A program made the position numbers and the translations under genes. Shown piece after piece: positions 3,095-53,782 of a stretch of DNA of 64,000 nt; within the stretch, counting starts at the first letter, position 1, and each line of letters begins with the position of its first letter. The notes below the pieces were generated by a model. The model saw only the letters and a program-made list of their open reading frames with translations, was not told the origin of the DNA and searched no databases. This DNA is from Leptolyngbya sp. BL-A-14. GTDB lineage: Bacteria; Cyanobacteriota; Cyanobacteriia; Leptolyngbyales; Leptolyngbyaceae. The stretch spans positions 2,196,571 to 2,260,570 of the forward strand of contig CP166621.1 of assembly GCA_041937185.1 (NCBI GenBank). Direction: 5' to 3'.

Positions 3095-4612
3095 ATGCCC
3101 ACCCTAGTTAAATCAGCGCCATTCTACGTGCATCCCATTAACGAAAAACTGGCAACTAAAATACTCTCTTTCGACAAACGGCTCTTTGCATCCAATGGTC
3201 GGTTATGCCTTCCCCATTCATTGAGGAGCTTTATGGTATCCACGCCTTCAAGTAATGATGTGACCGCAGAGACAGCGGAAAATCAGTCTAGCTACGGTTC
3301 GAATGAGTTGGGTTATCAGCAGTTGATTTTGTGTGCTGCGCTGATTGGTATTGCCGGTGGGCTGGTGGCAACCGCTTACTATTACGTGTTAGAAGCTTGT
3401 CTTCATATCACCTGGCATACGCTGCCCGACGTTGTGCTGCCACTCTTTCCTGCCATTCCAGCATGGAACTATGTGTGGATTGCGACGACGATCGGCGGTT
3501 TTTGTGTCGGTCTAACGCTGCGCTTTATGGGGCTACCCGGTGAAGTAGCCATGGTGGTGGACAAAGTGCATGATCCGGGTCGCATTGAAGTAAAGCAAAC
3601 ACCCGCCATGATTGTGGCATCGCTGTTTTCCATTACGGCGGGGGGCAGTGCTGGCCCCGAAGCACCGCTGGTGCAAATTCTGGGCAGCTTTGGGGGCTGG
3701 CTCAGCAGCAAACTGCGGCTCACGTTAGTAAACACTCGCGTGCTGACATTTTGCGGCATGAGTGCAGCGCTGGGTGCCTTTTTTGGCGCACCGTTGGGTG
3801 GTGCTTTGTTTGCCCTGGAACTCCCCCATCGACGCGGGTTGGAATATTACGAAGCATTGATTCCCGCCGTGCTATCCGCCATTCTCAGCTTCTTTGTGTT
3901 TCGGTTTAATACCGGGCTAACGATCGGCGGCATGTACCATTTTGAGGCCATTCCAGAACTGACGCTGATGAGCCTGCTGCAAGGCTTGTTACTTGGTGCA
4001 GCTGGTGCGGGTGTAGCCGTTACGTTTGTGTTGATCTTTCGGCTGATTGGCTCTCTGCTGCATCGGCTGGAGCACCACACCATTTTGCTGGCAACGCTCG
4101 GTGGTCTGACCATTGGGCTGCTGGCGCTGGCAGTGCCCCAAACTCTGTTTTTTGGCGAGAAAGAAATTCAGACGATCGTCGAAACGGGTGCCACGTTAGG
4201 GTTAACGATGTTGCTCGTCATTGGTTTCACCAAAATGCTGGCGATCGGCTTCACATTGCATTCTGGCTTTCGGGGCGGTTTCATCTTTCCCCTGTTTTAT
4301 CTGGGTGCCACCTTTGGCTACGCGATCGCTCTCAGCGTCCCCAATCTTCATCCGACGATCGCCATGGTGTGCATGATGGCAGCCGTGAATGTCGCCATTA
4401 CCAAAACACCCATCAGCAGCACGGTGATTCTGAGCGTGTTGTCCGATACAGCAATGGTGCCTGTGATCTTGATTGCGAGCTTTACCAGCTTTTTGCTCAC
4501 GACGCAGGTCTCGCTGATTGGTACCCAGCGATCACGCACCATTTTTCCGGCTGGACCACTCTTACAAGCAGAGCCCCAGCCTATCCCAATCGAAGTGCCT
4601 GTAAAGGTGTGA
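3095..4612 (+). CDS. CLC family voltage-gated chloride channel / H+-Cl- antiporter
   Basis: 505-aa polytopic protein with CLC signature segments GGSAGPEAP (GxEGP-like selectivity filter) and GFTLHSGFRGGFIFP; true start may be an internal Met. Confidence 0.8.
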   Translation: MPTLVKSAPFYVHPINEKLATKILSFDKRLFASNGRLCLPHSLRSFMVSTPSSNDVTAETAENQSSYGSNELGYQQLILCAALIGIAGGLVATAYYYVLEACLHITWHTLPDVVLPLFPAIPAWNYVWIATTIGGFCVGLTLRFMGLPGEVAMVVDKVHDPGRIEVKQTPAMIVASLFSITAGGSAGPEAPLVQILGSFGGWLSSKLRLTLVNTRVLTFCGMSAALGAFFGAPLGGALFALELPHRRGLEYYEALIPAVLSAILSFFVFRFNTGLTIGGMYHFEAIPELTLMSLLQGLLLGAAGAGVAVTFVLIFRLIGSLLHRLEHHTILLATLGGLTIGLLALAVPQTLFFGEKEIQTIVETGATLGLTMLLVIGFTKMLAIGFTLHSGFRGGFIFPLFYLGATFGYAIALSVPNLHPTIAMVCMMAAVNVAITKTPISSTVILSVLSDTAMVPVILIASFTSFLLTTQVSLIGTQRSRTIFPAGPLLQAEPQPIPIEVPVKV

Positions 4613-8883: not shown

Positions 8884-9133
8884 GAAACAGAATCCTGGTA
8901 GAGCAGAGAGGAAGGGGCAAGGGAAGTTTTTGGTTGCTAGTTGAGAAAGGGAAGCAGAGAGAGGACGTTTTGAGCTTTGAGTTGAGGCAGTTTTTAGTGG
9001 TTGGTTTTTAGTTTTTAGGACTGGAACAAGCGCTGCTTTTCTCTCCTTCTAACAACTAACAACTAACAACCAAAAACCCTTCTGCCCTCTGCCTCCTGCC
9101 TTCTTCTAGCAACTAGCAACCCAAAACGAACAA
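8884..9133. repeat. composite STRR-like repeat element with conserved AGCGCT core
   Basis: The whole 250-bp spacer is heptamer runs (GTTTTTA, AACAACT, CCTCTGC) around the core GGAACAAGCGCTGCTTTTCTCTCCTTCTAA. Confidence 0.8.
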
Positions 9134-26569: not shown

Positions 26570-26975
26570 GAGGTGTAACTCTATGAATAAGGTACGTTAG
26601 GGGTACGTCAAGGGAAGACGCGATCGGCCTTCTGGCGTCAGTGCTTCTAATCACCAGGAGGCGAGAGAGTCAGAAATCCTCTACAGTGGATTCTACATCG
26701 CAATTTACTGTAACGCTGTATTCCGTAGCATTGGGTTTAAAGTCAGTTGTAATCGCGATCGCTCAATGCAAGACGCTTTCTCTGGGTGGTAAATACCTTA
26801 AACGTCCTTCCAGACAGCGAATACAGCCGATCACTGGTTGACAATCTCCCGGTTTCACACTAGGAATGACATCTCAGGAATCTCTCACTCAACCCTGGTA
26901 GTCACTGCAATATTGGTTATAAGAGAGATTAGAGAATCCGATTGCCGCGATATCCTTTTCAACGTTAACGATCCC

Positions 26976-29705
26976 ATGTCAAAGCTTGTCATCGTCGAGT
27001 CACCCACCAAAGCGCGCACCATTCGCAATTACCTTCCTGAAGGGTATCGGGTAGAGGCGTCAATGGGTCATGTACGTGATTTACCCCAATCCGCCAGTGA
27101 AATTCCGGCAGGCGTGAAGGGAGAAAAGTGGGCACCGCTTGGCGTTAACGTGGAGGCAAACTTCGAGCCCCTGTATGTCGTACCGCAAGACAAGAAAAAG
27201 ATTGTTAAAGAACTGAAAGAAGCGCTAAAGGCAGCAGACGAACTCATTCTGGCGACTGACGAAGACCGGGAAGGAGAAAGCATTAGCTGGCACCTGCTGC
27301 AATTGCTCAAGCCCAATGTGCCGATCAAGCGCATGGTCTTCCACGAAATTACCGAAGATGCGATTCGTGAAGCCATCCGTAACTGCCGCGATGTCGATGA
27401 ACGGCTGGTACGCGCGCAGGAAACCCGCCGGATTCTCGATCGCTTGGTGGGCTACACCCTCTCGCCCCTGCTGTGGAAAAAAATTGCGTTTGGGCTTTCG
27501 GCTGGGCGGGTGCAGTCTGTATCCGTTCGCCTGCTGGTTAGACGGGAACGCCAGAGACGAGCCTTCCGTCAGGGCAGCTATTGGGATTTGAAGGCAACGT
27601 TGGAAGCTGGAGAGCAGGAGAAGCAGTCGTTTGAAGCGCGACTCGTGACGCTGGCAGGCGTTCGGGTTGCCAACGGCAGTGACTTTGATGAAGCAACGGG
27701 ACAGGTGATTGCCGGACGGAATGTGATGCTGCTGAATGAGGCAGAAGCACGGACGTTACAGGACCGGATTCGCGATCGCCCCTGGACCGTCACCAACCTG
27801 GAAGAGCGTCCCGTTACTCGCAAACCTTCGCCACCGTTTACAACCTCCACCCTGCAACAGGAGGCAAACCGTAAGCTAGGGCTTTCTGCCCGCGACACAA
27901 TGCGGACGGCCCAGAGCCTCTACGAGCAGGGTTACATTACCTACATGCGAACGGACTCCGTCAGCCTCTCGCAACAGGCAATTACCGCTGCTCGCGATTG
28001 TGTGCAATCCATGTACGGTGCCGAGTACCTCAGCCCAGAGCCCCGTCGCTACTCCACCAAAAGTAAAGGTGCGCAAGAGGCCCACGAAGCCATTCGTCCG
28101 TCTGGCAGCAGTTTCCGTACTCCACAGCAAACTGGGCTCAAAGACCGAGAATTTCGTCTTTACGACTTGATCTGGAAGCGTACAGTCGCCACCCAAATGG
28201 CTGAAGCTCGGCAAACCCACGTGACGGTACAAATCCAGGTTGAGGATGCGGGGTTTCGTGCCAGTGGTAAGCGCATTGACTTTCCAGGGTTCTTCCGCGC
28301 CTATGTCGAAGGGTCGGACGATCCGAATGCCGCGATCGAAGATCAGGAGATCATCCTTCCCCCCTTGCAAGTCGGCACTACACCTACCTGCACTGATCTG
28401 GACGCTATCGGCCACGAAACCCAGCCACCCGCCCGTTTTACCGAAGCTTCTCTAGTTAAAACGCTGGAAAGCGAAGGCATTGGTCGCCCCAGTACCTACG
28501 CCAGCATTATTGGCACCATCATCGATCGGGGCTACGCCAATATGGTCGGCAATGCCCTGGTACCGACCTTTACCGCCTTTGCGGTCACCGCCTTACTCGA
28601 AAAATACTTCCCCGATCTGGTCGATACAGGATTTACGGCCCGCATGGAACATGCGCTAGACGAGATCTCCACGGGCGCGGTTGATTGGCTCCCCTACCTG
28701 AAAGAGTTCTATCTGGGCGAAACCGGACTTGAAACCCAGGTGAAAGACCGCGAGAGCGAAATCGACCCGACAGAGGCACGGACGGTCGATTTAGAAAATT
28801 TGGCCGCGAAAGTGCGTATTGGTCGCTTTGGAGCCTACATCGAAGCTGAAAATGGCGATGGGAGTGTCAAAGCCTCCATTCCCAAAGATTTGACCCCGGC
28901 GGATCTCGATCCCGCTCAGGTGGAAGTACTGCTACGCCAAAAAACCGAAGGTCCCGATAAGGTCGGTCTACACCCCGAAACCGGCGAACCGATTTATCTC
29001 AAAATCGGTGCGTACGGTCCCTACGTGCAGCTTGGCGACGAGACAGAAGCCAACCCTAAGCCCAAACGTGCCTCTTTGCCCAAAGGCGTCACACCTGACA
29101 CGCTAACGCTCGAACAAGCGGTTGGCTTACTCAAGTTACCCCGGCTGCTAGGGACGCATCCTGAGTCAGGCGGCAAAATTCAGGCAAGCCTGGGTCGTTT
29201 TGGTCCCTACGTCGTGTTGGATCAGGGCAAAGGCGTGAAGGAATATCGCTCCATCAAAGCAGGCGATGATGTGTTGACGATTACCCTCGATCGCGCCCTC
29301 GAAATGCTGGCAGAACCCAAAGCGAGTCGCGGCAAACGGGGTGCCGCCAAACCCCTCCGCGAACTGGGTGCCCATCCTGAAGACGGCGAACCTGTCAATA
29401 TTTACGATGGGCCTTACGGTCCTTACATCAAGCACGGCAAGGTGAATGCCTCGCTGCCCGAAGGCGAAACCGTGGAAGCGATCGCTATGACTACCGCAGT
29501 GGAAGCCCTCAACGCCAAGGCGGGCACAAAGAAAGGAGGACGATCGCGCAAAGCCAGCACCGACGCCACTGAAACCACCAAAGCCACCAAAGCCAGCGGC
29601 ACCGCCAAAAAGACCGCCGCCAAAACAACGGCTGGCACCAAAAAGACCACCGCGAAGAAAACGACGACTAAAAAATCCACCACCAAAAAAGCTTCAACGA
29701 CCTGA
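26976..29705 (+). CDS. topA: DNA topoisomerase I
   Basis: Toprim N-terminus ([14 protein letters not shown]), active-site region, multiple zinc-ribbon-like repeats; lysine/threonine-rich C-terminal tail; start moved to internal ATG 26976. Confidence 0.93.
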
Positions 29706-29789: not shown

Positions 29790-31394
29790 TTAGCATCCAG
29801 CCTCAATCTGCCTCACAGCCGTTAGCGCTGAGTAACTTACCCCTGCCGTTCCCTCACCGGGATGGGTTGAGTCTCCTACCAGCCAAAGGTTACGAATGGG
29901 TGTCCGGTTCGCAAAGCCAAAGGGACCAAACGTAGGTACCCGTTGACCAATGCCACCAACGATGCCCCGATCACGCCCCGTAAAGTGTGCAAACGTGCGA
30001 GGAGTCGCCGCTTCCACCAACAAAATCGTCTCGTCATTCAGGGTGAAGAATTGAGATAACCGGGCGATCGCTTCATCGGTATACCGCTGTTTGAGCAAGG
30101 CAAAAGAGTTAAGAGTTAAGAGTTTTGAGTTTTGAGTTTCAAGTTTAATCTTTTGCCTTCTGCCTTCTGCCTTCTGCCTTCTGCCTTCTACTTCCCCCTT
30201 TTCCCACCAAAGCCCCACATCCGTAAACGACGACGCAATAATCGTCGCCTTCCCCTCCGGTGCCCGACCATCACCCGGACGACTGACCGACACGAAGAGC
30301 GAGTTGTTTTCGCCGATCGGGCCCTCGTAGTCGTATAAAAATTGCAGATGAGGCGGACAGTCTTCAGGAAGCGCACGTTCATCTACGCCCAGATACACCA
30401 CAAACGCACCAGAACTCGGCGGCAGTTTCTCCACCCGTCGTTGGTAGCCGTTGGGAGCCTGGTCGCCCAGCAGTTGCATCAAATTCTGCACCGTTACATT
30501 TGCCACCACGTGGTCAACGGGTTCCGTCCAGCTTTCACCTGTTTTCTGGTTGCGGATCGTTACTCCCGTTGTTCGCCCTTTCTCAGTGTGAATCGCTTTC
30601 ACCGTGTGGCGCATGAGGAGCTTGCCACCATCTCGTTCTAAGGCAGCAACGAGGCGATCGCTCAACGCCTGCATGCTCCCGTGAAGGTGAAACAATCCCT
30701 GTGGCTCCTGAGAAACCCCTAAAGCTGTGGCTGCGTAGAGCAACGCCGTTTCTTCGGCGTCGACCTGAGAATAAAGCTTGAGTTGCAGATCAAGGAAGGT
30801 TCGTAGCCGTTGGTTGTCTGCCAAACCGTAGCCGCGAAGGGCATCTCCCACTGTCGAAAACGTATGCGGCAGCGTCAAAAGCGTATCGGGACGGACAGCC
30901 TTGGTTAATTGCCACAAATCCCACCCGTTGCGTGGCGGTAAGACTGGATCACGAGACTGAAACGCCCAGCTATGGCGAAACAGATCGGACAACAGTTGCC
31001 AGAAGGGTTCGCTGCCTGGAAATTGCCGTTGACGCTCAGCCTGCCATCGCTGCGGGTCGCGCCACACGTTAATGGGTGTGGTTTCTCCAGGCAAATAAAC
31101 GGCACAAGCAGGGTCGCAGTGCGTTGCAGCAGGCAGTTCAATCTCTAGCTCCGAGAAAATGCGGTGATGAATGCCGCCGGGTTCTAACCCTGCAACCTGA
31201 GTCGCACCCACATCAAAGGTAAACCCCTGCCGTTTAAAGGTCGAAGCACAACCACCCGGCACTAGCGCTTGATCCAGCATCAGCACTGAGTAGCCCCGAT
31301 GGGCCAGCAAAGCGCCTGCGGTCAGCCCGCCAATGCCTGCACCAATCACAACCACACGGGGAGAATGAGCACGATCGCCCTGTTTACCTGGCAT
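29790..31394 (-). CDS. phytoene desaturase (CrtI) family FAD-dependent oxidoreductase
   Basis: VVVIGAGIGGLTAGALLAHRGYSVLMLD dinucleotide-binding motif, GGCASTFKRQGFTFDVGA; contains an in-frame STRR-like insertion. Confidence 0.75.
   Translation of the reverse strand: MPGKQGDRAHSPRVVVIGAGIGGLTAGALLAHRGYSVLMLDQALVPGGCASTFKRQGFTFDVGATQVAGLEPGGIHHRIFSELEIELPAATHCDPACAVYLPGETTPINVWRDPQRWQAERQRQFPGSEPFWQLLSDLFRHSWAFQSRDPVLPPRNGWDLWQLTKAVRPDTLLTLPHTFSTVGDALRGYGLADNQRLRTFLDLQLKLYSQVDAEETALLYAATALGVSQEPQGLFHLHGSMQALSDRLVAALERDGGKLLMRHTVKAIHTEKGRTTGVTIRNQKTGESWTEPVDHVVANVTVQNLMQLLGDQAPNGYQRRVEKLPPSSGAFVVYLGVDERALPEDCPPHLQFLYDYEGPIGENNSLFVSVSRPGDGRAPEGKATIIASSFTDVGLWWEKGEVEGRRQKAEGRRQKIKLETQNSKLLTLNSFALLKQRYTDEAIARLSQFFTLNDETILLVEAATPRTFAHFTGRDRGIVGGIGQRVPTFGPFGFANRTPIRNLWLVGDSTHPGEGTAGVSYSALTAVRQIEAGC
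30098..30195. repeat. STRR-like heptamer array inside CDS (in-frame)
   Basis: AAGAGTT, GAGTTTT and CCTTCTG x5 runs; translated as [28 protein letters not shown] within the oxidoreductase. Confidence 0.8.
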
Positions 31395-31596: not shown

Positions 31597-32943
31597 GTGA
31601 AGCTACCCATCGAAGGGCACTGCATGACTTCAACCCTCATCAAATCCACGGCTCATAAACTAAATGCGCCAACACTGCATCGGCTCCCTAACGGCTTGAC
31701 GATCGTCGCCGAGCAGATGCCCGTCGAAGCAGTCAATCTAGATATCTGGCTTAATGTCGGTTCTGCGGTTGAAGCAGACAACATTAACGGGATGGCGCAC
31801 TTCCTAGAGCACATGATCTTCAAAGGCACTGCGCAACTCCAGAGCGGCGAATTTGAGCGCCGGATTGAGCAACGAGGAGCGGTAACCAACGCGGCCACCA
31901 GTCAGGATTACACTCACTACTACATCACGACAGCACCGAAGGATTTTGCAGCGCTAGCCCCCTTACAACTGGATGTTTTGCTCAATGCGAGCATTCCTGA
32001 TGATGGGTTTGAACGCGAACGTCAGGTGGTTTTAGAAGAAATTCGGCGATCGCAGGATAACCCTCGTCGTCGCACCTTTCAGCATGCCACTGAGTTAACG
32101 TTTGATCGACTTCCCTATCGCCGTCAGGTGTTAGGTCCCACCAACGTTATCGAGCAGCTCACGGCTCAACAAATGCGGGATTTTCACCAGCATTGGTATC
32201 AGCCAACTGCGATGACAGCCGTTGCCGTTGGTAATTTACCTGTTGATGAATTGATCCGCATTGTTGAAGAGGGGTTTGAGCAAACTGTTAGCCGTCAGTG
32301 GCCAAGGGGCACTCAATTGCCCGCACCCCACAACCCACAACCCACACCTACACCCCACACCCCACACCCTGAGTCCCCCTTTCAGCACATTGTGCGCCGT
32401 GAATTGGTTGATGCAAGCCTTCAGCAAGCACGACTGGTGATGATCTGGCGCGTGCCAGGGTTGAATGATTTGCAGCAGACTTATGTCCTGGATGTCCTGG
32501 CTTCTGTATTAAGTCACGGTCGCGCGACTCGTCTGGTGCAAGATTTGCGAGAACAACGGGGACTCGTATCGAGCATTGCTGCCAGTAACATCACCTACCG
32601 TCATCAGGGTGCCTTTTACATTTCAGCGCAGTTGCCTGTAGAAAATCTTGATCGAGTAGAGGCGGCGATCGTCCAGCACCTTCGCACACTACAAACAGAG
32701 TTGATTAGCGACGCAGAAATCGCCCGCATTCGGACTCGTGTGGCCAACCATTTCGTCTTTGGCAGCGAAACGCCCAGCGATCGAGCGGGTCTCTACGGCT
32801 ACTACCAAACTCTGGTGGGTGACGTCTCAGCAGCGCTTGACTATCCGAAGCTGATCCAGGCACTGGATGCCGAAGCGGTCAGGACAGCCGTGCAGACCTA
32901 TCTTTCACCCGAAGCCTATGCGGTGGTTACGATTAAGCCGTGA
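31597..32943 (+). CDS. M16 family zinc metallopeptidase (pitrilysin-like processing protease)
   Basis: Inverted zinc-binding motif HFLEHMIFKGT (HxxEH); 448 aa; internal P/H/T-rich segment encoded by CCCCACA/CACAACC repeats. Confidence 0.85.
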   Translation: MKLPIEGHCMTSTLIKSTAHKLNAPTLHRLPNGLTIVAEQMPVEAVNLDIWLNVGSAVEADNINGMAHFLEHMIFKGTAQLQSGEFERRIEQRGAVTNAATSQDYTHYYITTAPKDFAALAPLQLDVLLNASIPDDGFERERQVVLEEIRRSQDNPRRRTFQHATELTFDRLPYRRQVLGPTNVIEQLTAQQMRDFHQHWYQPTAMTAVAVGNLPVDELIRIVEEGFEQTVSRQWPRGTQLPAPHNPQPTPTPHTPHPESPFQHIVRRELVDASLQQARLVMIWRVPGLNDLQQTYVLDVLASVLSHGRATRLVQDLREQRGLVSSIAASNITYRHQGAFYISAQLPVENLDRVEAAIVQHLRTLQTELISDAEIARIRTRVANHFVFGSETPSDRAGLYGYYQTLVGDVSAALDYPKLIQALDAEAVRTAVQTYLSPEAYAVVTIKP

Positions 32944-38987: not shown

Positions 38988-39347
38988 CTAACTTCCCCGA
39001 TAGGTACTGTATGACCAGGGTGAAGCCAGCAGCGGGACATGATAGTGAGCATTGGGATCAGCAATGCCAAATTTAATCGGAATTTCATTCAGAAAGGGCG
39101 GGTTGGGCAAGCCCGAAAGGTGTTGGGCGAAGTAGGCTCCAGCACTGAAGACCAGTTCATACACGCCCGCTTGCAGCGCACCATCCGCTAATAACGGACT
39201 GTCTGTGCGCCCATCGGCATTGGTTGTCACCGTTTTCAGGAGTGTTTTTTCACCAGAGGGCGCGATCGACCAGAGTGCGATCGCTAAACCAGCGGCTGGG
39301 CAACCTTGAGCGGTATCGAGAACGTGTGTTGTGAGTTTGCCAGACAT
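38988..39347 (-). CDS. uraH: 5-hydroxyisourate hydrolase (transthyretin-like)
   Basis: 119 aa; N-terminal LTTHVLDTAQGCPAAG and the diagnostic C-terminal YRGS tetrapeptide. Confidence 0.8.
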   Translation of the reverse strand: MSGKLTTHVLDTAQGCPAAGLAIALWSIAPSGEKTLLKTVTTNADGRTDSPLLADGALQAGVYELVFSAGAYFAQHLSGLPNPPFLNEIPIKFGIADPNAHYHVPLLASPWSYSTYRGS

Positions 39348-39425
39348 GGAGGGTAGGGATGGTGAGGGAGCAGAGGGAGCGGAGGGAGCAGAGGAGGGAG
39401 GGGGGCTTAGTTTTGAGTTGGGTTC
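39348..39425. repeat. STRR-like heptamer repeat cluster
   Basis: GGGAGCA/GAGGGAG runs and GTTTTGAGTT in the divergent uraH-guaD spacer. Confidence 0.7.
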
Positions 39426-39558: not shown

Positions 39559-40896
39559 GTGTCTTTAAAAGCGTTTCGTGGTGCGTTTCTCGATTTTGTT
39601 GATGATCCATTCTATGTCTCAGAAGCGGACAGCGTTCGTTACCTGCCGGACGGTTTACTGGTTGTAGAAGATGGCAAGGTTAAAGCGTTAGGGACTTACG
39701 AAAGTCTCCAGTCGAGTTATGCAGATATCCCCATTACGGCTTACCCCGATCGGTTGATTGTGCCGGGGTTTATCGATACGCACATTCACTTTCCGCAAAC
39801 GGAGATGATTGCAGCGTGTGGAGAGCAACTGTTGACATGGTTGGGCAAATACACCTTTCCAACGGAAGGAAAGTTTAAAGATAAAGCGTATGCCCTGGAA
39901 ATTGCGTCCTTCTTTTTGGATGAATTACTGAAGCACGGCACCACAACGGCTTTAGTTTTTGCAGCGGTTTATCCCCAGTCGGTCGATGCGTTTTTTGAAG
40001 AAGCGAGCCGTCGCCATCTGCGTATGATTGCGGGCAAGGTGCTGATGGATCGCCATGCACCAGACTTTTTAACGGATACGCCAGAAAGTGCTTATGAAGA
40101 GAGCAAACAGCTCATTGAGAAATGGCACGGACACGATCGCCTGTTGTATGCCATTACACCTCGTTTTGCGGTTACCTCGAGTGATGAGCAACTGCGGCTA
40201 GCGGGTAAGCTGCTGGCGGAGTATCCAGATGTCTACTTACACACGCATTTGTCAGAGAACGTGGATGAGGTGGCGCTGGTAGCAGAACTATTTCCGGACA
40301 GCAAGAACTATCTAGATGTGTACGATCGTGCTGGACTGGTTGGCAGTAAATCTGTCTTTGCCCACGGTGTACAGTTGACCGAAGCTGAATTTCAACGCCT
40401 GTCAAAGGCGCGATCGGCGATCTCTTTTTGCCCAACGTCCAACCTTTTTCTTGGCAGCGGGCTTTTCAATCTAAAAAAAGCGAAGTCTACAGACTACCCC
40501 ATTAAAGTAGGCTTGGGCACTGATGTTGGCGGTGGTACGAGCTTTTCGATGCTTCAAACCACCAGTGAGGCGTACAAAGTCACTCAATTGCGGGATGAAG
40601 CACTTTCATCTTTTCAGGCAATCTTTCTAGCGACGCTGGGTGGTGCGAAGGCACTTTGCCTGGAGGATACGTTAGGCAACTTCAACCCTGGTAAAGAAGC
40701 CGATTTTGTTGTCCTGGATCCAAGAGCAACGCCACTCATGGCCCGTCGAAACCCAATCGCGAAGGCTGATTCACTAGAAACACTCGCCGATCAAGTGTTT
40801 GCCATGATGATCTTGGGGGACGATCGCGCCATTCACGCTACATACGTTATGGGCGAGCTTGCATATGAGAATGCAGCGTATCAGAATCGGGGTTAG
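39559..40896 (+). CDS. guaD: guanine deaminase
   Basis: Amidohydrolase with PGFIDTHIHFPQT metal-binding motif and N-terminal FRGAFLDFVDDPF typical of guanine deaminases; 445 aa. Confidence 0.85.
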   Translation: MSLKAFRGAFLDFVDDPFYVSEADSVRYLPDGLLVVEDGKVKALGTYESLQSSYADIPITAYPDRLIVPGFIDTHIHFPQTEMIAACGEQLLTWLGKYTFPTEGKFKDKAYALEIASFFLDELLKHGTTTALVFAAVYPQSVDAFFEEASRRHLRMIAGKVLMDRHAPDFLTDTPESAYEESKQLIEKWHGHDRLLYAITPRFAVTSSDEQLRLAGKLLAEYPDVYLHTHLSENVDEVALVAELFPDSKNYLDVYDRAGLVGSKSVFAHGVQLTEAEFQRLSKARSAISFCPTSNLFLGSGLFNLKKAKSTDYPIKVGLGTDVGGGTSFSMLQTTSEAYKVTQLRDEALSSFQAIFLATLGGAKALCLEDTLGNFNPGKEADFVVLDPRATPLMARRNPIAKADSLETLADQVFAMMILGDDRAIHATYVMGELAYENAAYQNRG

Positions 40897-48896: not shown

Positions 48897-49115
48897 GGGA
48901 AGTCTCCTTGGTGGTGGTGGAAGGCAGGAGGCAGAAGGCAGGAGGCAGAAGGCAGAGGGCAGAAGGCAGGAGGTTTTTGGGTTGTTAGCGGTTAGTGGTT
49001 AGAAGGAGAGAAAATGCAGCGCTTGTTCTAGCTCAAAACTCAAAACCAACCACTCAAAGCTCAAAACTCTCTAGCGAAGCGGCACGAAGTGCTACTCAAA
49101 ACTCTCTTTCGCTCT
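48897..49115. repeat. composite STRR-like repeat element with conserved AGCGCT core (reverse orientation)
   Basis: GGCAGAA/GGCAGGA runs, GTTAGTG runs, core TTAGAAGGAGAGAAAATGCAGCGCTTGTTCT, AAAACTC runs. Confidence 0.8.
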
Positions 49116-51478: not shown

Positions 51479-52783
51479 TTAGCTGTGCATAATCTCCATC
51501 AAGCAGTCGGCAATCCTTTTGGCGGCTCCGGGTGTGCCCATGCGACGATGACCGTTTTCGGCGATCGTTTGTAGCGCATCGGGATTTTGCAACAGCGATT
51601 GGATCACAGCCGCCACACGATCGGGTTCCTTCACCAACAGAACGGAGGCACCTAATAAACGAGTTTGTGCTTCAGCAAAACGAGGCGTAAACTGCGGACC
51701 TTTGCCTGGAAGGATGATCGCAGGTTTACCCAAGCCGACAAACTGTTCCGTTGCGGTGCCTGCCATCGCGATCGCTACATCGGCTCGATGCAAACACTCT
51801 GCAAACCGTCGTTGCGCCAACACCAGCGTCGATTTGCGATCGCCCAAGCCCACCGTGTAGGAATCTTCCGTCAACTGCTGCCAGCGATACGCCATCAATG
51901 CCTTGTGCAGCAAGTCTACATCCAGTCCGGGCGCGATCGCGGCTAAGAGCGTGAGCGGTCGTGACATCTGGGCAATCATCCCATTCACCGCTTGCAAAAT
52001 CGTTTCCCAATTGGCGTAAGCCTCCGGTGGACGGGAACCGGGAATGAGAGCGATTGTTAAGGCTAAAGGCTGAAGGCTGAAGGCTAAATCTTGACTTTTA
52101 TCCTTTATCCCTAAGCCTTTATCCTTCTCTTCCCACTCCAGCCCATCCATCATTGGATTTCCCAAATCAAACGCTGGAATGTTTCGCCGTCGAAGGCTCG
52201 TTGCCGTGATGGTGTCTCTAGGGAACACCGCTTTGCAGTGTAGATGGCTCATCAGCCACCGCTCCCACGGAAGGTAAATACACCCCGTCCAGCGCTCAAG
52301 GCGATCGTCCCACCAGGAGTCACGCGGCAACCAGCCCCCCTCATCGCGCAGATAGTATTCTGACTTCGCCGTACCCACAAACGCGTAGGGAAGCCCACTG
52401 AGACGGGCGAAGAGGAGGGGGACGATATCGCCAACCGCGAGGATGAGGGAGTGGGGAGTGGGGAATGGGGAGTGGGGAGCGGCGGTTTCCTTTGCCCAGG
52501 CTTTGATGGCGCGGAGTTGTGCCAGCGTGAGTTGAAGTAACCCACCTCGAATGTCGCGCGCAAGCTGCCGCCCATCCTGATAGATGAAACCACCAGACGG
52601 CATGGTCTTGACGGAGCCAATGAGGGAAATGCCATTGTCGATATAGGCATGACCTTCACCCACGATCGGCAAAGCGGCAAGTTCTGGTGGATTGGGCTGT
52701 TGCTGAAGTTCACGCAAGATGCGGAGGGCGATCGCATCTTCACCATGACCGTTGCTAAGACAGAGTACGCGCATGAGCAGCAA
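51479..52783 (-). CDS. lipid-A-disaccharide synthase-related protein (LpxB-like glycosyltransferase)
   Basis: 434 aa; N-terminal LSNGHGEDAIA motif of the LpxB-related family; carries two in-frame heptamer-repeat insertions. Confidence 0.65.
   Translation of the reverse strand: MLLMRVLCLSNGHGEDAIALRILRELQQQPNPPELAALPIVGEGHAYIDNGISLIGSVKTMPSGGFIYQDGRQLARDIRGGLLQLTLAQLRAIKAWAKETAAPHSPFPTPHSLILAVGDIVPLLFARLSGLPYAFVGTAKSEYYLRDEGGWLPRDSWWDDRLERWTGCIYLPWERWLMSHLHCKAVFPRDTITATSLRRRNIPAFDLGNPMMDGLEWEEKDKGLGIKDKSQDLAFSLQPLALTIALIPGSRPPEAYANWETILQAVNGMIAQMSRPLTLLAAIAPGLDVDLLHKALMAYRWQQLTEDSYTVGLGDRKSTLVLAQRRFAECLHRADVAIAMAGTATEQFVGLGKPAIILPGKGPQFTPRFAEAQTRLLGASVLLVKEPDRVAAVIQSLLQNPDALQTIAENGHRRMGTPGAAKRIADCLMEIMHS
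52056..52137. repeat. STRR-like heptamer array inside CDS (in-frame)
   Basis: GGCTAAA, GGCTGAA x2, GGATAAA-type runs; translated as EWEEKDKGLGIKDKSQDLAFSLQPLA inside the LpxB-like ORF. Confidence 0.8.
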
Positions 52784-52997: not shown

Positions 52998-53483
52998 TTA
53001 GTGGGCTGGAGATTGTTTGGGTGCGGGTGCTTCTAACGTTCCTGTAAAGGGGATTTCGCCAGGAGCGGAGCTTAAGCTGAGCGTACCGTTGAGAGATTGT
53101 TGCGCGATCGTCCCCTGAATTTTGACATCGCCCTGGCATTTAGGTAGGTAGCTGGCATCTCCCTGTAAGGTTAACCGTTGATTCTCCCAATTTCCCGTCA
53201 TCGAAGGACGTTCTGTTGCCCGTTTTTCCAGCGCTTCTGCAGTCTCAGACGCAAGCAGCGATCCGGTTAAATAAATCCCAGACTGCTGCACCAGTAGAAT
53301 TAACTGCTCAGACTTCAAGCATCCTGGCAAAGCCTGGGCTGGAATTTGGTAGCGACCGTCGATTTTTTGAGCCGCTTTCAGATTTGCTTCGCCGTAGGCT
53401 GTCACAACGCTAAACAAAGCTACAACAACGGCGATCGCGCCACCGTAGAAACTGAGAGATTTGAGATTGAAGTGATTGCCCAT
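52998..53483 (-). CDS. hypothetical secreted/membrane-anchored protein
   Basis: Start at ATG 53483 (MGNHFNLKSLSFYGGAIAVVVALFSVV signal/TM); the upstream part of the ORF is translated GAGTTTT repeats. Confidence 0.5.
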   Translation of the reverse strand: MGNHFNLKSLSFYGGAIAVVVALFSVVTAYGEANLKAAQKIDGRYQIPAQALPGCLKSEQLILLVQQSGIYLTGSLLASETAEALEKRATERPSMTGNWENQRLTLQGDASYLPKCQGDVKIQGTIAQQSLNGTLSLSSAPGEIPFTGTLEAPAPKQSPAH

Positions 53484-53782
53484 GAAAAATAGTTTTGAGT
53501 TTTGAGTTTTGAGTTTAGTCAGTTTTAAAGCCTTCGGCATGGCTTCGCTAGAGGGGTTGGTTTTCGTTTTTAGCTGGAACCAGCGCTACCTTTTCTCTCC
53601 TTCTAAGCACTTTTCTTGAATGCCCTCTCTTGTATGCCTGAAAGGCTTTAGGGCTATACCACTAACGACCAAAAACCCTTCTGCCTTCTGCCTTCTGCCT
53701 TCTGCCTTCTGCCTTCTGCCTTCTGCCTTCTGCTTTCTGCCTTCTGCTTTCTGCCTTCTGCTTTCTGCCTTCTCCCCCATCC
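53484..53782. repeat. composite STRR-like repeat element with AGCGCT core plus a TTCTGCC array of about 15 copies
   Basis: GAGTTTT x4; core GGAACCAGCGCTACCTTTTCTCTCCTTCTAA; (CCTTCTG)n/(CTTTCTG)n array from 53677 to 53782. Confidence 0.85.

What the first reader, a model, noticed from the sequence alone, without database searches (positions are those of the whole stretch)
30098..30195. In-frame heptamer-repeat insertion inside a CrtI-family oxidoreductase gene
A block of about 100 bp of heptamer repeats (AAGAGTT, GAGTTTT, CCTTCTG x5) sits inside the 534-aa FAD-oxidoreductase ORF. It is the same repeat type that fills intergenic spacers here. The block is translated in-frame as [34 protein letters not shown] without stops. 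Heptamers keep frame only in multiples of three, so this implies selection for an intact reading frame after insertion. Either the enzyme tolerates a roughly 34-aa surface insertion, or the gene is a very recent pseudogene.
Basis: seen in the sequence. Interest (0 to 1): 0.6.

Follow-up and report, generated by a model that had tools for sequence, protein, structure and literature searches.

The report
Hypervariable heptamer-repeat loop inside CrtD
A block of 7-base tandem repeats, the same type that fills this cyanobacterium's intergenic spacers, is translated in frame as a floppy loop of an otherwise strongly conserved carotenoid desaturase; the same loop has been expanded and remodelled in many related species, so it is a tolerated, fast-evolving passenger and not a sign of gene decay.

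Summary
Window 30104-30189 holds three abutting heptamer arrays inside the 534-aa ORF 29790-31394 (-). That ORF is CrtD, the C-3',4' carotenoid desaturase of Leptolyngbya sp. BL-A-14. On the coding strand the arrays read (GAAGGCA)5.7, (AAAACTC)~3 and (AACTCTT)3.

Residues 398-430 replace four residues of an ancestral 13-aa turn, a net gain of 29 aa.

- **Not a pseudogene.** dN/dS is 0.02-0.11 on both sides of the insert at dS of about 1, and 79 of 79 orthologous loci keep frame across the site.
- **Placement.** AlphaFold puts the insert in a three-residue turn and predicts it disordered.
- **Hot spot.** 44 of 120 homologues carry 4-66 extra residues at this site, built from different heptamer units.
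- **Frame-keeping steps.** Two 98.6%-identical strains differ by one 21-nt (three-unit) indel.
- **Selection against stops.** Units that would give an in-frame stop are mutated or absent, and only one orientation of the island is codable.
- **Not unique to CrtD.** An M16 peptidase and a lipid-A-disaccharide-synthase-related gene in the window carry similar in-frame arrays.

Best reading: a slippage-driven microsatellite island tolerated in a surface loop and filtered by selection on frame. It is a new variant of a known kind (cyanobacterial heptamer repeats). Interest is moderate.

The parts
29790..31394 (-). crtD coding sequence (C-3',4' carotenoid desaturase, 534 aa), intact
   Evidence: ORF. 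TIGR02733 scores 768.8 bits against a cut-off of 549.7. 100% identical to P0001, 'C-3',4' desaturase CrtD [Leptolyngbya sp. BL-A-14]'. Foldseek top hits are 4rep and 4dgk. dN/dS is 0.02-0.11.
30105..30203 (-). Inserted segment: codons 398-430 ([33 protein letters not shown]). It replaces about 4 ancestral residues (QCxD) between the conserved WW and Y/F431.
   Evidence: Alignment A1 and loop extraction. Residues 400-419 have pLDDT below 50. In the insert-free orthologue the site is a 3-residue turn between helix 385-389 and helix 393-411.
30150..30189 (-). 5' arm: (GAAGGCA)5.7 on the coding strand, translated as the 7-aa cycle EGRRQKA. It has no stop in any frame on either strand.
   Evidence: TRF score 73, 96% matches. 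Openness table.
30120..30146 (-). 3' arm, first part: (AAAACTC)-type units, translated TQNSKL. Open on the coding strand; the reverse (GAGTTTT) has TGA in every frame.
   Evidence: TRF rows 30120-30139 and 30120-30146. Openness table.
30104..30124 (-). 3' arm, second part: (AACTCTT)3. It holds two out-of-frame TAA, and the array ends one codon before a TAA would fall in frame.
   Evidence: TRF 100% matches. Stop counts. Sequence read. Unit table.
32320..32369 (+). Comparator: in-frame (CCCACAC/AACCCAC) array in the neighbouring M16 peptidase gene (31597-32943), translated PAPHNPQPTPTPHTPHP.
   Evidence: TRF. Sequence. Orthologues in syntenic loci are hypervariable at the same linker, with heptamer-type peptides.
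52447..52479 (-). Comparator: in-frame (CCCCACT) array (PHSPFPTPHS) in the lipid-A-disaccharide-synthase-related gene 51479-52783.
   Evidence: TRF. Translation. TIGR03492 at 478 bits, with 425 residues matched to 395 profile positions.
52059..52126 (-). Comparator: second in-frame island in the same gene, (GGATAAA)+(TAGCCTT/CAGCCTT), giving KDKGLGIKDK...DLAFSLQPLAL. The unit that falls in frame is CAG, not TAG.
8884..9133 (-). Comparator: intergenic composite element. Order: (GAAGGCA)n, GGGTTTTTGG, (TTGTTAG)n, core AGAAGGAGAGAAAAGCAGCGCTTGTTCCAG, (CTAAAAA)n, (AAAACTC)n.
48897..49115 (+). Comparator: second copy of the same composite element, with a small hairpin-like insert nested in its AAAACTC arm (about 49084-49107).
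   Evidence: No significant fold, z = +1.87.
53541..53782 (-). Comparator: third copy of the composite element, with a (CAGAAGG)13.9 arm.

Best explanation
**What it is.** The block is an in-frame island of tandem heptanucleotide (STRR-like) microsatellites lodged in a short surface turn of the carotenoid desaturase CrtD.

**How it works.**
- Shown: the arrays change length between close strains, and the gene stays under strong purifying selection.
- Inferred: length and unit sequence change quickly through replication slippage or unequal recombination. Purifying selection on CrtD then removes every variant whose net length change is not a multiple of 3 or that creates an in-frame stop.
- Only one orientation survives, purine/G-rich arm first and AAAACTC- or C-rich arm second. 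In the other orientation the second arm carries TGA or TAG in all three frames.

**Effect on the protein (inferred).** The product is a full-length, functional CrtD carrying a 33-residue hydrophilic, mostly disordered loop. That loop is most likely neutral baggage.

**Age and scope (shown).** The island is old or recurrent in this clade, is continuously renewed, and is one instance of a genome-wide colonisation of tolerant protein loops and linkers by the genome's heptamer repeats.
For: **Shown**
1. The arrays are real and non-random.
2. It is an insertion relative to a 12-13-aa ancestral loop.
3. The gene is under strong purifying selection on both sides of the insert. dN/dS is 0.023-0.062 for the N-part and 0.031-0.107 for the C-part, at dS 0.7-3.2, against ten insert-bearing orthologues.
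4. All 79 orthologous loci that have both flanks keep one frame, with spacer lengths of 8-67 aa.
5. 44 of 120 homologues have at least 4 extra residues at this site. No other internal site has more than 2 such sequences.
6. The inserts of orthologues are themselves period-7 arrays of different units: GGGGAGT, GGGAGTC, GAAGTCA, AAAGGCA, CACCTCA, CACCCCT, CTAACAA and AAAACTC.
7. Arrays are still near-perfect although flanking dS is about 1, so they are being renewed.
8. Loci L081 and L083 differ by 22 mismatches in 1560 nt plus a single 21-nt indel, which is three heptamers, or 7 aa (GRRQEAE).
9. Stop avoidance. In L067 the CTAACAA array has CCAACAA exactly at the in-frame unit. The window's TAGCCTT array has CAGCCTT at the in-frame unit. 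The window's AACTCTT array ends one codon before an in-frame TAA.
10. The unit table shows second-arm units open forward and closed in reverse. 17 of 18 inserts are G-rich in the 5' half, and 17 of 18 are C-rich in the 3' half.
11. In the AF2 model, residues 400-419 have pLDDT below 50 with no secondary structure from 397 to 415. They are flanked by confident strand 383-391 and helix 431-447. The insert-free orthologue has a 3-residue turn there.
12. The same phenomenon occurs in two other genes of the window and in M16 orthologues of other species.

**Inferred:** slippage as the mutational mechanism, and neutrality of the loop.
Against: - No expression or proteomic data were available, so translation of the loop is inferred from conservation of frame.
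- All 15 members of the window's own clade retain an expanded loop (19-73 aa) and none has reverted to 13 aa. This could mean the loop has acquired a function, or only that precise deletion is rare.
- The concentration on one site (44 of 120 homologues, against at most two sequences at any other internal site) is stronger than simple 'any loop will do' tolerance predicts. It hints at a local mutational seed that I did not identify.
- The NJ tree used to judge recurrence is approximate.
Confidence: 0.82

Rival explanations
1. **Origin rival.** The island was not born in situ. It was delivered by a dispersed composite repeat element of this genome (arms of heptamer arrays around a unique ~30-nt core). 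Its stop-containing centre was later deleted, leaving an 'arms-only' copy in crtD.
For: - Three intergenic elements in the window share the ordered architecture (GAAGGCA)n, GGGTTTTTGG, (TTGTTAG)n, core, (AAAACTC)n, in both genomic orientations.
- The crtD island aligns to their two arms in the same order and lacks only the centre.
- Some orthologues (L067, P0011, P0012) carry a middle CTAACAA array as well.
- A 24-nt hairpin-like insert nested in AAAACTC arms occurs both in the window's intergenic copies and in the crtD islands of L005 and L067.
Against: - The core was not found in the flanks of the 80 genome-search loci (L001-L080).
- Arms are simple repeats, so their similarity carries little information on descent.
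- The middle array in L067 is inverted relative to the window's elements.
- The element has no terminal inverted repeats and no fold better than shuffles, z = +1.8.
- No transposase or target-site duplication was seen.
Confidence: 0.3
2. The loop is functional. Selection retains an expanded, flexible, charged loop in CrtD (for example for membrane association or partner binding), and the heptamer arrays are merely the raw material.
For: - Every member of the window's clade keeps an expanded loop of 19-73 aa.
- The polarity is conserved: an acidic/Gly/Arg-rich part, then a TQNSKLK- or Pro/His/Thr-rich part.
Against: - Peptide sequence, length and unit type differ even within 90%-identity clusters.
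- The polarity is fully explained by stop codons in the reverse orientation.
- The same peptides (GRRQ.., TQNSKLK, PHTPHP) appear in unrelated proteins: the M16 peptidase and the LpxB-related protein.
- Most cyanobacterial CrtD proteins work with a 12-13-aa loop.
Confidence: 0.08
3. The array is a contingency locus. Gain or loss of single heptamers switches CrtD off and on (phase variation).
For: - The repeat unit is not divisible by 3 and lies inside a CDS.
- Array length is polymorphic between close strains.
Against: - 0 of 79 loci are out of frame.
- The one close-strain polymorphism resolved at the DNA level is a frame-preserving three-unit step.
- The same arrays sit in housekeeping genes, such as the M16 peptidase and the LpxB-related gene.
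- Consensus assemblies could hide minority OFF alleles, so the hypothesis is not fully excluded.
Confidence: 0.04
4. The gene is a very recent pseudogene, or the block is an assembly artefact.
For: Only the oddity of non-triplet repeats inside a CDS.
Against: - The ORF is intact.
- dN/dS is about 0.05 downstream of the insert.
- All invariant C-terminal residues are retained.
- Independent assemblies from many species and sources show inserts at the same site.
Confidence: 0.01

Closest known systems
STRR sequences (short tandemly repeated repetitive heptanucleotides) of heterocystous cyanobacteria. Mazel et al. 1990, from my own knowledge. Vioque 1997 (NAR 25:3471) reported STRR inside the RNase P RNA gene; that reference is as listed in PMC2858038.
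   Same: - Tandem 7-nt units dispersed at many loci and mostly intergenic.
- They can sit inside a functional gene at a structurally tolerant position without destroying function.
   Different: - The host is a non-heterocystous Leptolyngbya.
- The canonical units CCCCAGT, TTGGTCA and CAACAGT are absent from the window.
- Here the host gene encodes a protein, so frame and stop codons add a filter.
- The islands are polar composites of two or three different units.
Heptamer repeats inside ORFs in Beggiatoaceae and Microcystis (TAACTGA repeats, giving LSVISYQ peptides; MacGregor 2015, PMC4679880, section 15).
   Same: - Heptamer arrays occasionally lie within coding sequence.
- One orientation has stops in all frames, so only the other can be coding.
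- The authors propose that insertions survive mainly where the protein tolerates them.
   Different: - Those cases are mostly at protein termini or in hypothetical proteins.
- Here the array is internal, in a well-conserved enzyme. It recurs at one site across many species and shows three-unit-step polymorphism.
Long simple sequence repeats of prokaryotes (Mrazek et al. 2007, as summarised in PMC4679880) and GGGGA(C/T)T repeats of Nostoc (Rehm 2015, PMC4692102).
   Same: - Heptanucleotide units are the dominant long SSR class.
[quoted passage not shown]
   Different: - Those surveys stress that coding repeats are mostly multiples of 3. This is a non-triplet unit maintained in frame.
- G-rich units (GGGGAGT in L002) sit on the coding strand here.
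Phase-variable contingency loci (non-triplet SSRs in coding regions, for example in Haemophilus and Neisseria).
   Same: A non-triplet tandem repeat inside a CDS, with variable length.
   Different: - No OFF alleles were seen (0 of 79 loci).
- The polymorphism resolved at the DNA level (L081 vs L083) is a frame-preserving step.
- The gene is a metabolic housekeeping gene.
Small dispersed repeats (SDR) of Nostoc (Elhai et al. 2008, Genome Res 18:1484). I could not read the paper; the description is from my own knowledge.
   Same: Very small hairpin-like units nested inside tandem heptamer arrays. An element of about 24 nt of this kind sits in the AAAACTC arms of two intergenic islands here and in the crtD islands of L005 and L067.
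   Different: The window's crtD island itself contains no such unit. Sequence relatedness to SDR1-8 was not tested.

Membership tests
CrtD, C-3',4' carotenoid desaturase (NCBIfam TIGR02733; CrtI superfamily) | Whole-protein score above the curated equivalog cut-off | tested here: met
   768.8 bits against a cut-off of 549.7. The match is split into two stretches at profile position 400, where the insert lies.
CrtD, C-3',4' carotenoid desaturase (NCBIfam TIGR02733; CrtI superfamily) | N-terminal FAD-binding Rossmann motif (GxGxxG) and CrtI-type fold | tested here: met
   VVVIGAGIGG at residues 13-23. PF13450 and PF01593 hits. G18, G20 and G23 are invariant. Foldseek: 4rep at E = 1.2e-23 and 4dgk at 3.4e-19.
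CrtD, C-3',4' carotenoid desaturase (NCBIfam TIGR02733; CrtI superfamily) | Catalyses 3',4'-desaturation in myxoxanthophyll synthesis | not testable with these tools
   Needs genetics and HPLC. Inferred only from equivalog membership and purifying selection.
STRR / heptanucleotide long SSRs of cyanobacteria | Tandem repeats with a 7-nt unit, dispersed at many loci, mainly intergenic | tested here: met
   16 period-7 runs in 64 kb and none for neighbouring periods. 9 of the 16 are intergenic although only about 16% of the window is non-coding.
STRR / heptanucleotide long SSRs of cyanobacteria | Canonical STRR1-3 unit sequences (CCCCAGT, TTGGTCA, CAACAGT) | tested here: not met
   No dimer of any rotation on either strand. 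So it is STRR-like in behaviour, not a member of STRR1-3.
STRR / heptanucleotide long SSRs of cyanobacteria | Host is a heterocyst-forming cyanobacterium | tested here: not met
   The window is Leptolyngbya sp. BL-A-14. Insert-bearing relatives are Stenomitos, Tildeniella, Leptodesmis and Leptothermofonsia.
Phase-variable contingency locus | Non-triplet SSR within the CDS, with length polymorphism among close strains | tested here: met
   Heptamer arrays in the CDS. A 21-nt indel between L081 and L083 at 98.6% identity.
Phase-variable contingency locus | Out-of-frame (OFF) alleles occur in natural isolates or populations | tested here: not met
   0 of 79 loci are frame-discordant. The polymorphism resolved at the DNA level is a three-unit, frame-keeping step. 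Caveat: these are consensus assemblies only.
MITE / hairpin-forming repeat or intrinsic terminator | Terminal inverted repeats or a fold more stable than shuffled sequence | tested here: not met
   RNA fold z = +1.76 (coding strand), +0.48 (other strand) and +1.87 (intergenic element). No Rfam family reaches gathering score in the window.
SDR-type very small mobile elements (Elhai 2008) | 21-27-nt hairpin unit nested within a heptamer array | tested here: not met
   Absent from the window's crtD island. Present in intergenic islands near 49084 and 53552, and in the crtD islands of L005 and L067. Homology to published SDR families was not tested.

The most novel reading that the evidence does not exclude
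Heptamer-array islands may form a polar, self-propagating repeat system in Leptolyngbya-like cyanobacteria: a composite element with a unique core, G-rich and C-rich heptamer arms, and nested 24-nt hairpin units. On this reading the system actively seeds arrays into genes, and its arms-only derivatives create a genome-wide class of hypervariable protein loops and linkers evolving orders of magnitude faster than the host proteins. That would be a little-described bacterial mechanism for generating protein length variation. The CrtD 398-430 site would be a preferred target rather than merely the only tolerated one.
Probability: 0.15. Interest if true: 0.65.

Novelty: new variant of a known kind. 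Interest (0 to 1): 0.38.

Why it matters
- **How repeats and genes coexist.** It shows how a genome full of non-triplet microsatellites coexists with its genes. The repeats do invade conserved enzymes, but they persist only in one orientation, in net multiples of three, and in disordered turns.
- **Practical markers.** The resulting loops are fast, easily scored strain markers.
- **Annotation and modelling.** They are a warning for annotation pipelines and structure predictors, because length outliers among CrtD, M16 and LpxB-like orthologues are not errors or pseudogenes.
- **Natural experiment.** They offer a natural test of which positions in a CrtI-fold enzyme tolerate up to about 66 extra residues.
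- **If the hot spot is mutational.** If the site is a mutational hot spot rather than a selective one, it would point to a sequence-specific mechanism for heptamer-array birth, which is still unexplained in cyanobacteria.

Tried and rejected
- **Rfam.** A scan of the whole window at gathering thresholds found no family.
- **Hairpin, MITE or terminator.** Folding the island on both strands, and folding an intergenic element, gave folds worse than shuffles. Rejected.
- **Canonical units.** STRR1-3, TAACTGA and GGGGAYT are absent.
- **Core of the intergenic element.** It occurs three times in the window. It was not found in the flanks of the 80 genome-search loci L001-L080, so its wider distribution is unknown.
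- **Mapping onto a crystal structure.** phmmer against PDB sequences did not align the region around the insert, so I used AF2 models instead.
- **Regex anchors for the frame test.** They failed on half the loci and were replaced by a two-flank tblastn test.
- **Papers not held.** Elhai 2008 and Vioque 1997. What I say about them comes from their titles in reference lists or from my own knowledge.
- **Leptolyngbya SSR survey.** PMC8619395 covers only 1-6-nt units and is silent on heptamers.
- **Within-genome concerted evolution.** I looked for shared units between the crtD and M16 islands of the same genome. The peptides show no clear pattern.
Full report
**1. Observation**

The sequence at 30098-30195 is as described.
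- Tandem Repeats Finder reports, on the + strand, AAGAGTT x3.0 (30104-30124), GAGTTTT x2.9 (30120-39) and CTTCTGC x5.7 (30150-30189), with 96-100% matches.
- They lie inside ORF 29790..31394 on the - strand, 534 aa. Its translation runs ...[58 protein letters not shown]... with no stop.
- On the coding strand the arrays are (GAAGGCA)5.7, (AAAACTC)~3 and (AACTCTT)3.
- A heptamer array read in any frame gives the same cyclic 7-aa peptide: EGRRQKA, KTQNSKL and so on.
- Period-7 self-identity in the loop DNA is 0.71, against about 0.3 for other periods.
- The window holds 16 strong period-7 runs. Periods 4-6, 8 and 10-12 have none, and 50 Markov-1 simulations gave none.
- The same units fill intergenic spacers at 8884-9133, 48897-49115 and 53541-53782.

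**2. The gene**

- The ORF is CrtD, the C-3',4' carotenoid desaturase. TIGR02733 scores 768.8 bits against a cut-off of 549.7.
- Pfam finds Amino_oxidase and NAD_binding_8 domains.
- It is 100% identical to a protein annotated as CrtD of Leptolyngbya sp. BL-A-14.
- The predicted fold matches carotenoid desaturases 4rep and 4dgk.
- The family profile matches in two stretches that break at profile position 400, which is exactly where the repeats lie.

**3. It is an insertion, and the site is a hot spot**

I aligned 120 homologues, and a genome search returned 80 orthologous loci with DNA.
- Most cyanobacteria have a 12-13-aa loop here (D..xW...DYxx). The window has 42 aa. Residues 398-430 (window 30105-30203) replace about four ancestral residues.
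- 44 of 120 homologues carry at least 4 extra residues at this position. No other internal position has more than two such sequences.
- All 15 members of the window's clade (Stenomitos, Tildeniella, Phormidium FACHB-592, Lyngbya HA4199 and others) have loops of 19-73 aa, and a neighbouring clade has 23-63 aa.
- Scattered sister pairs differ sharply: P0052 has 78 aa where P0058 has 12, and P0025 has 38 where P0079 has 14 (approximate NJ tree). The site has therefore been expanded or emptied several times.
- The orthologous inserts are themselves heptamer arrays but of different units: GGGGAGT, GGGAGTC, GAAGTCA, AAAGGCA, CACCTCA, CACCCCT, CTAACAA and AAAACTC.

**4. Not a pseudogene; the frame is under selection**

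- Against ten insert-bearing orthologues, dN/dS is 0.023-0.062 upstream (codons 12-395) and 0.031-0.107 downstream (codons 434-534), at dS 0.7-3.2.
- A two-flank tblastn test shows that all 79 loci with both flanks present keep the same frame. Spacers range from 8 to 67 aa.
- Within 90%-identity clusters the loop differs while the rest of the protein is nearly constant.
- At DNA level, L081 and L083 differ by 22 mismatches in 1560 nt plus one 21-nt indel. That is exactly three heptamers, or 7 aa (GRRQEAE).
- Because the arrays are still near-perfect although flanking synonymous sites are close to saturation, they must be continually renewed rather than decaying relics. This is inference.

**5. 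Stop codons shape the island**

- The unit table shows that GAAGGCA is open on both strands.
- AAAACTC, CACCTCA, CACCCCT, CCTACTC and similar units are open forwards but carry TGA or TAG in every frame in reverse. Only one orientation of a two-arm island can be coding.
- Consistent with this, 17 of 18 inserts with DNA are G-rich in the 5' half, and 17 of 18 are C-rich in the 3' half.
- Units that are closed when perfect are tolerated only in broken form:
  - The window's (AACTCTT)3 has two out-of-frame TAA and stops one codon before an in-frame one.
  - L067's CTAACAA array has CCAACAA at exactly the in-frame unit.
  - The window's TAGCCTT array in another gene has CAGCCTT at the in-frame unit.

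**6. Structure**

- In the AF2 model of the window protein (mean pLDDT 80), residues 400-419 have pLDDT below 50, and no secondary structure is assigned from 397 to 415.
- The C-terminal part of the insert is modelled with low confidence as an N-terminal extension of the long helix that follows. The flanks (strand 383-391, helix from about 431) are confident.
- In the insert-free orthologue P0058 the corresponding place is a three-residue turn between helix 385-389 and helix 393-411, modelled confidently.
- Sequence search of the PDB did not align this region, so I could not place it on a crystal structure.

**7. A genome-wide process, not a CrtD peculiarity**

Two other genes in the window carry in-frame heptamer arrays.
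- The M16 peptidase (31597-32943) carries one at 32320-32369, translated PAPHNPQPTPTPHTPHP.
- A lipid-A-disaccharide-synthase-related gene (51479-52783, TIGR03492) carries them at 52447-52479 and 52059-52126.
- M16 orthologues in the syntenic loci are hypervariable at the same linker, with the same peptide types: GGRRQEAGGRRQ...NPHPTPHTPSPTPHT in L020 and IQNSKLKTQNY in L012.
- One CrtD homologue (P0098) has a second heptamer island at another loop, near residue 314.

**8. Relation to the intergenic repeats**

- The three intergenic islands are homologous composite elements with a fixed order: (GAAGGCA)n, GGGTTTTTGG, (TTGTTAG)n, a unique core AGAAGGAGAGAAAAGCAGCGCTTGTTCCAG, (CTMAAAA)n, then (AAAACTC)n. 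They occur in either genomic orientation.
- The crtD island aligns to the two arms in the same order and lacks the stop-rich centre.
- This leaves two origins open: delivery by such an element followed by loss of the centre, or in-situ birth of arrays from a purine-rich WW-acidic turn.
- The elements have no inverted repeats and no fold better than shuffles, and no Rfam match. The core was not found in the flanks of the 80 genome-search loci.

**9. Comparison with what is known**

- Heptanucleotide arrays are the classic STRR repeats of heterocystous cyanobacteria and the dominant long SSR class in prokaryotes. This comes from the summary in PMC4679880, from PMC4692102, and from my own knowledge of Mazel 1990.
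- STRR inside a functional RNase P RNA gene is a precedent for tolerated invasion (Vioque 1997, title as listed in PMC2858038).
- MacGregor 2015 (PMC4679880, section 15) described TAACTGA heptamers inside ORFs, with the same orientation-dependent stop logic. Those cases are mostly at protein termini or in hypothetical proteins.
- The differences here:
  - the host is non-heterocystous;
  - the canonical STRR units are absent;
  - the island sits internally in a strongly conserved enzyme;
  - it recurs at one site across many species;
  - it shows three-unit-step polymorphism;
  - its organisation is a polar composite.
- The contingency-locus model fails its key test: no OFF alleles in 79 loci.

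**10. Verdict**

The pseudogene alternative is refuted.
- The mechanism I commit to, at about 0.8 confidence, is a slippage-prone heptamer microsatellite island tolerated in a disordered surface turn and filtered by selection on frame and stop codons.
- I class it as a new variant of a known kind, of moderate interest.
- Two questions stay open: why this one turn is hit so often, and whether the composite intergenic element is the donor.

Noticed in passing
window 31597-32943 (+), array at 32320-32369: The M16-family peptidase next to crtD carries its own in-frame heptamer array, (CCCACAC/AACCCAC), translated PAPHNPQPTPTPHTPHP. It lies in the linker between the two M16 domains. Orthologues in syntenic loci are hypervariable at the same place, with heptamer-type peptides.
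   Followed up: partly
window 51479-52783 (-), arrays at 52447-52479 and 52059-52126: A lipid-A-disaccharide-synthase-related gene (TIGR03492) has two in-frame heptamer islands, PHSPFPTPHS and KDKGLGIKDK...DLAFSLQPLAL. In the TAGCCTT array the in-frame unit is CAGCCTT, which avoids a stop.
   Followed up: partly
window 8884-9133 (-), 48897-49115 (+), 53541-53782 (-): These are three copies of a composite intergenic repeat element with fixed internal order: a (GAAGGCA)n arm, GGGTTTTTGG, (TTGTTAG)n, a unique ~30-nt core AGAAGGAGAGAAAAGCAGCGCTTGTTCCAG, then A-rich and AAAACTC arms. It has no inverted repeats, no significant fold and no Rfam match. Its nature and mobility are unknown.
   Followed up: partly
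window ~49084-49107 (+) and ~53520-53552 (-); L005 ~4218-4241; L067 ~4311-4334: A ~24-nt hairpin-like unit (TCTAGCG[A/T]AGCGGC.C.AAG.GCT) is nested inside AAAACTC arrays. It occurs in two intergenic islands of the window and, in frame (SSVAAQSA), inside the crtD islands of two other species. It is reminiscent of Elhai's small dispersed repeats.
   Followed up: partly
L084 (P0098), crtD codons ~319-353: One CrtD homologue has a second heptamer-derived insert of about 35 aa (..SPQPSPSVQNSKFKAQNSKFF) at a different loop, near window residue 314. It has the same G-rich then AAAACTC-type polarity.
   Followed up: partly
window 29540-29705 (+), C-terminus of topA ORF 26838-29705: Topoisomerase I ends in a low-complexity Lys/Thr/Ala-rich tail ([42 protein letters not shown]). 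It is encoded by period-9 and period-15 repeats, not heptamers.
   Followed up: no
window 39348-39402: A purine-rich period-9/18 array (GAGGGAGCA) lies in the spacer between ORFs 38988-39347 (-) and 39559-40896 (+). This and one other are the only non-heptamer tandem arrays that scored in my period scan.
   Followed up: no
window 53491-53516, within the 5' end of ORF 52998-53540 (-): A (CAAAACT)3.7 array lies in the first ~15 codons of the longest ORF call. Either the true start is downstream, or this is another coding array at an N-terminus.
   Followed up: no
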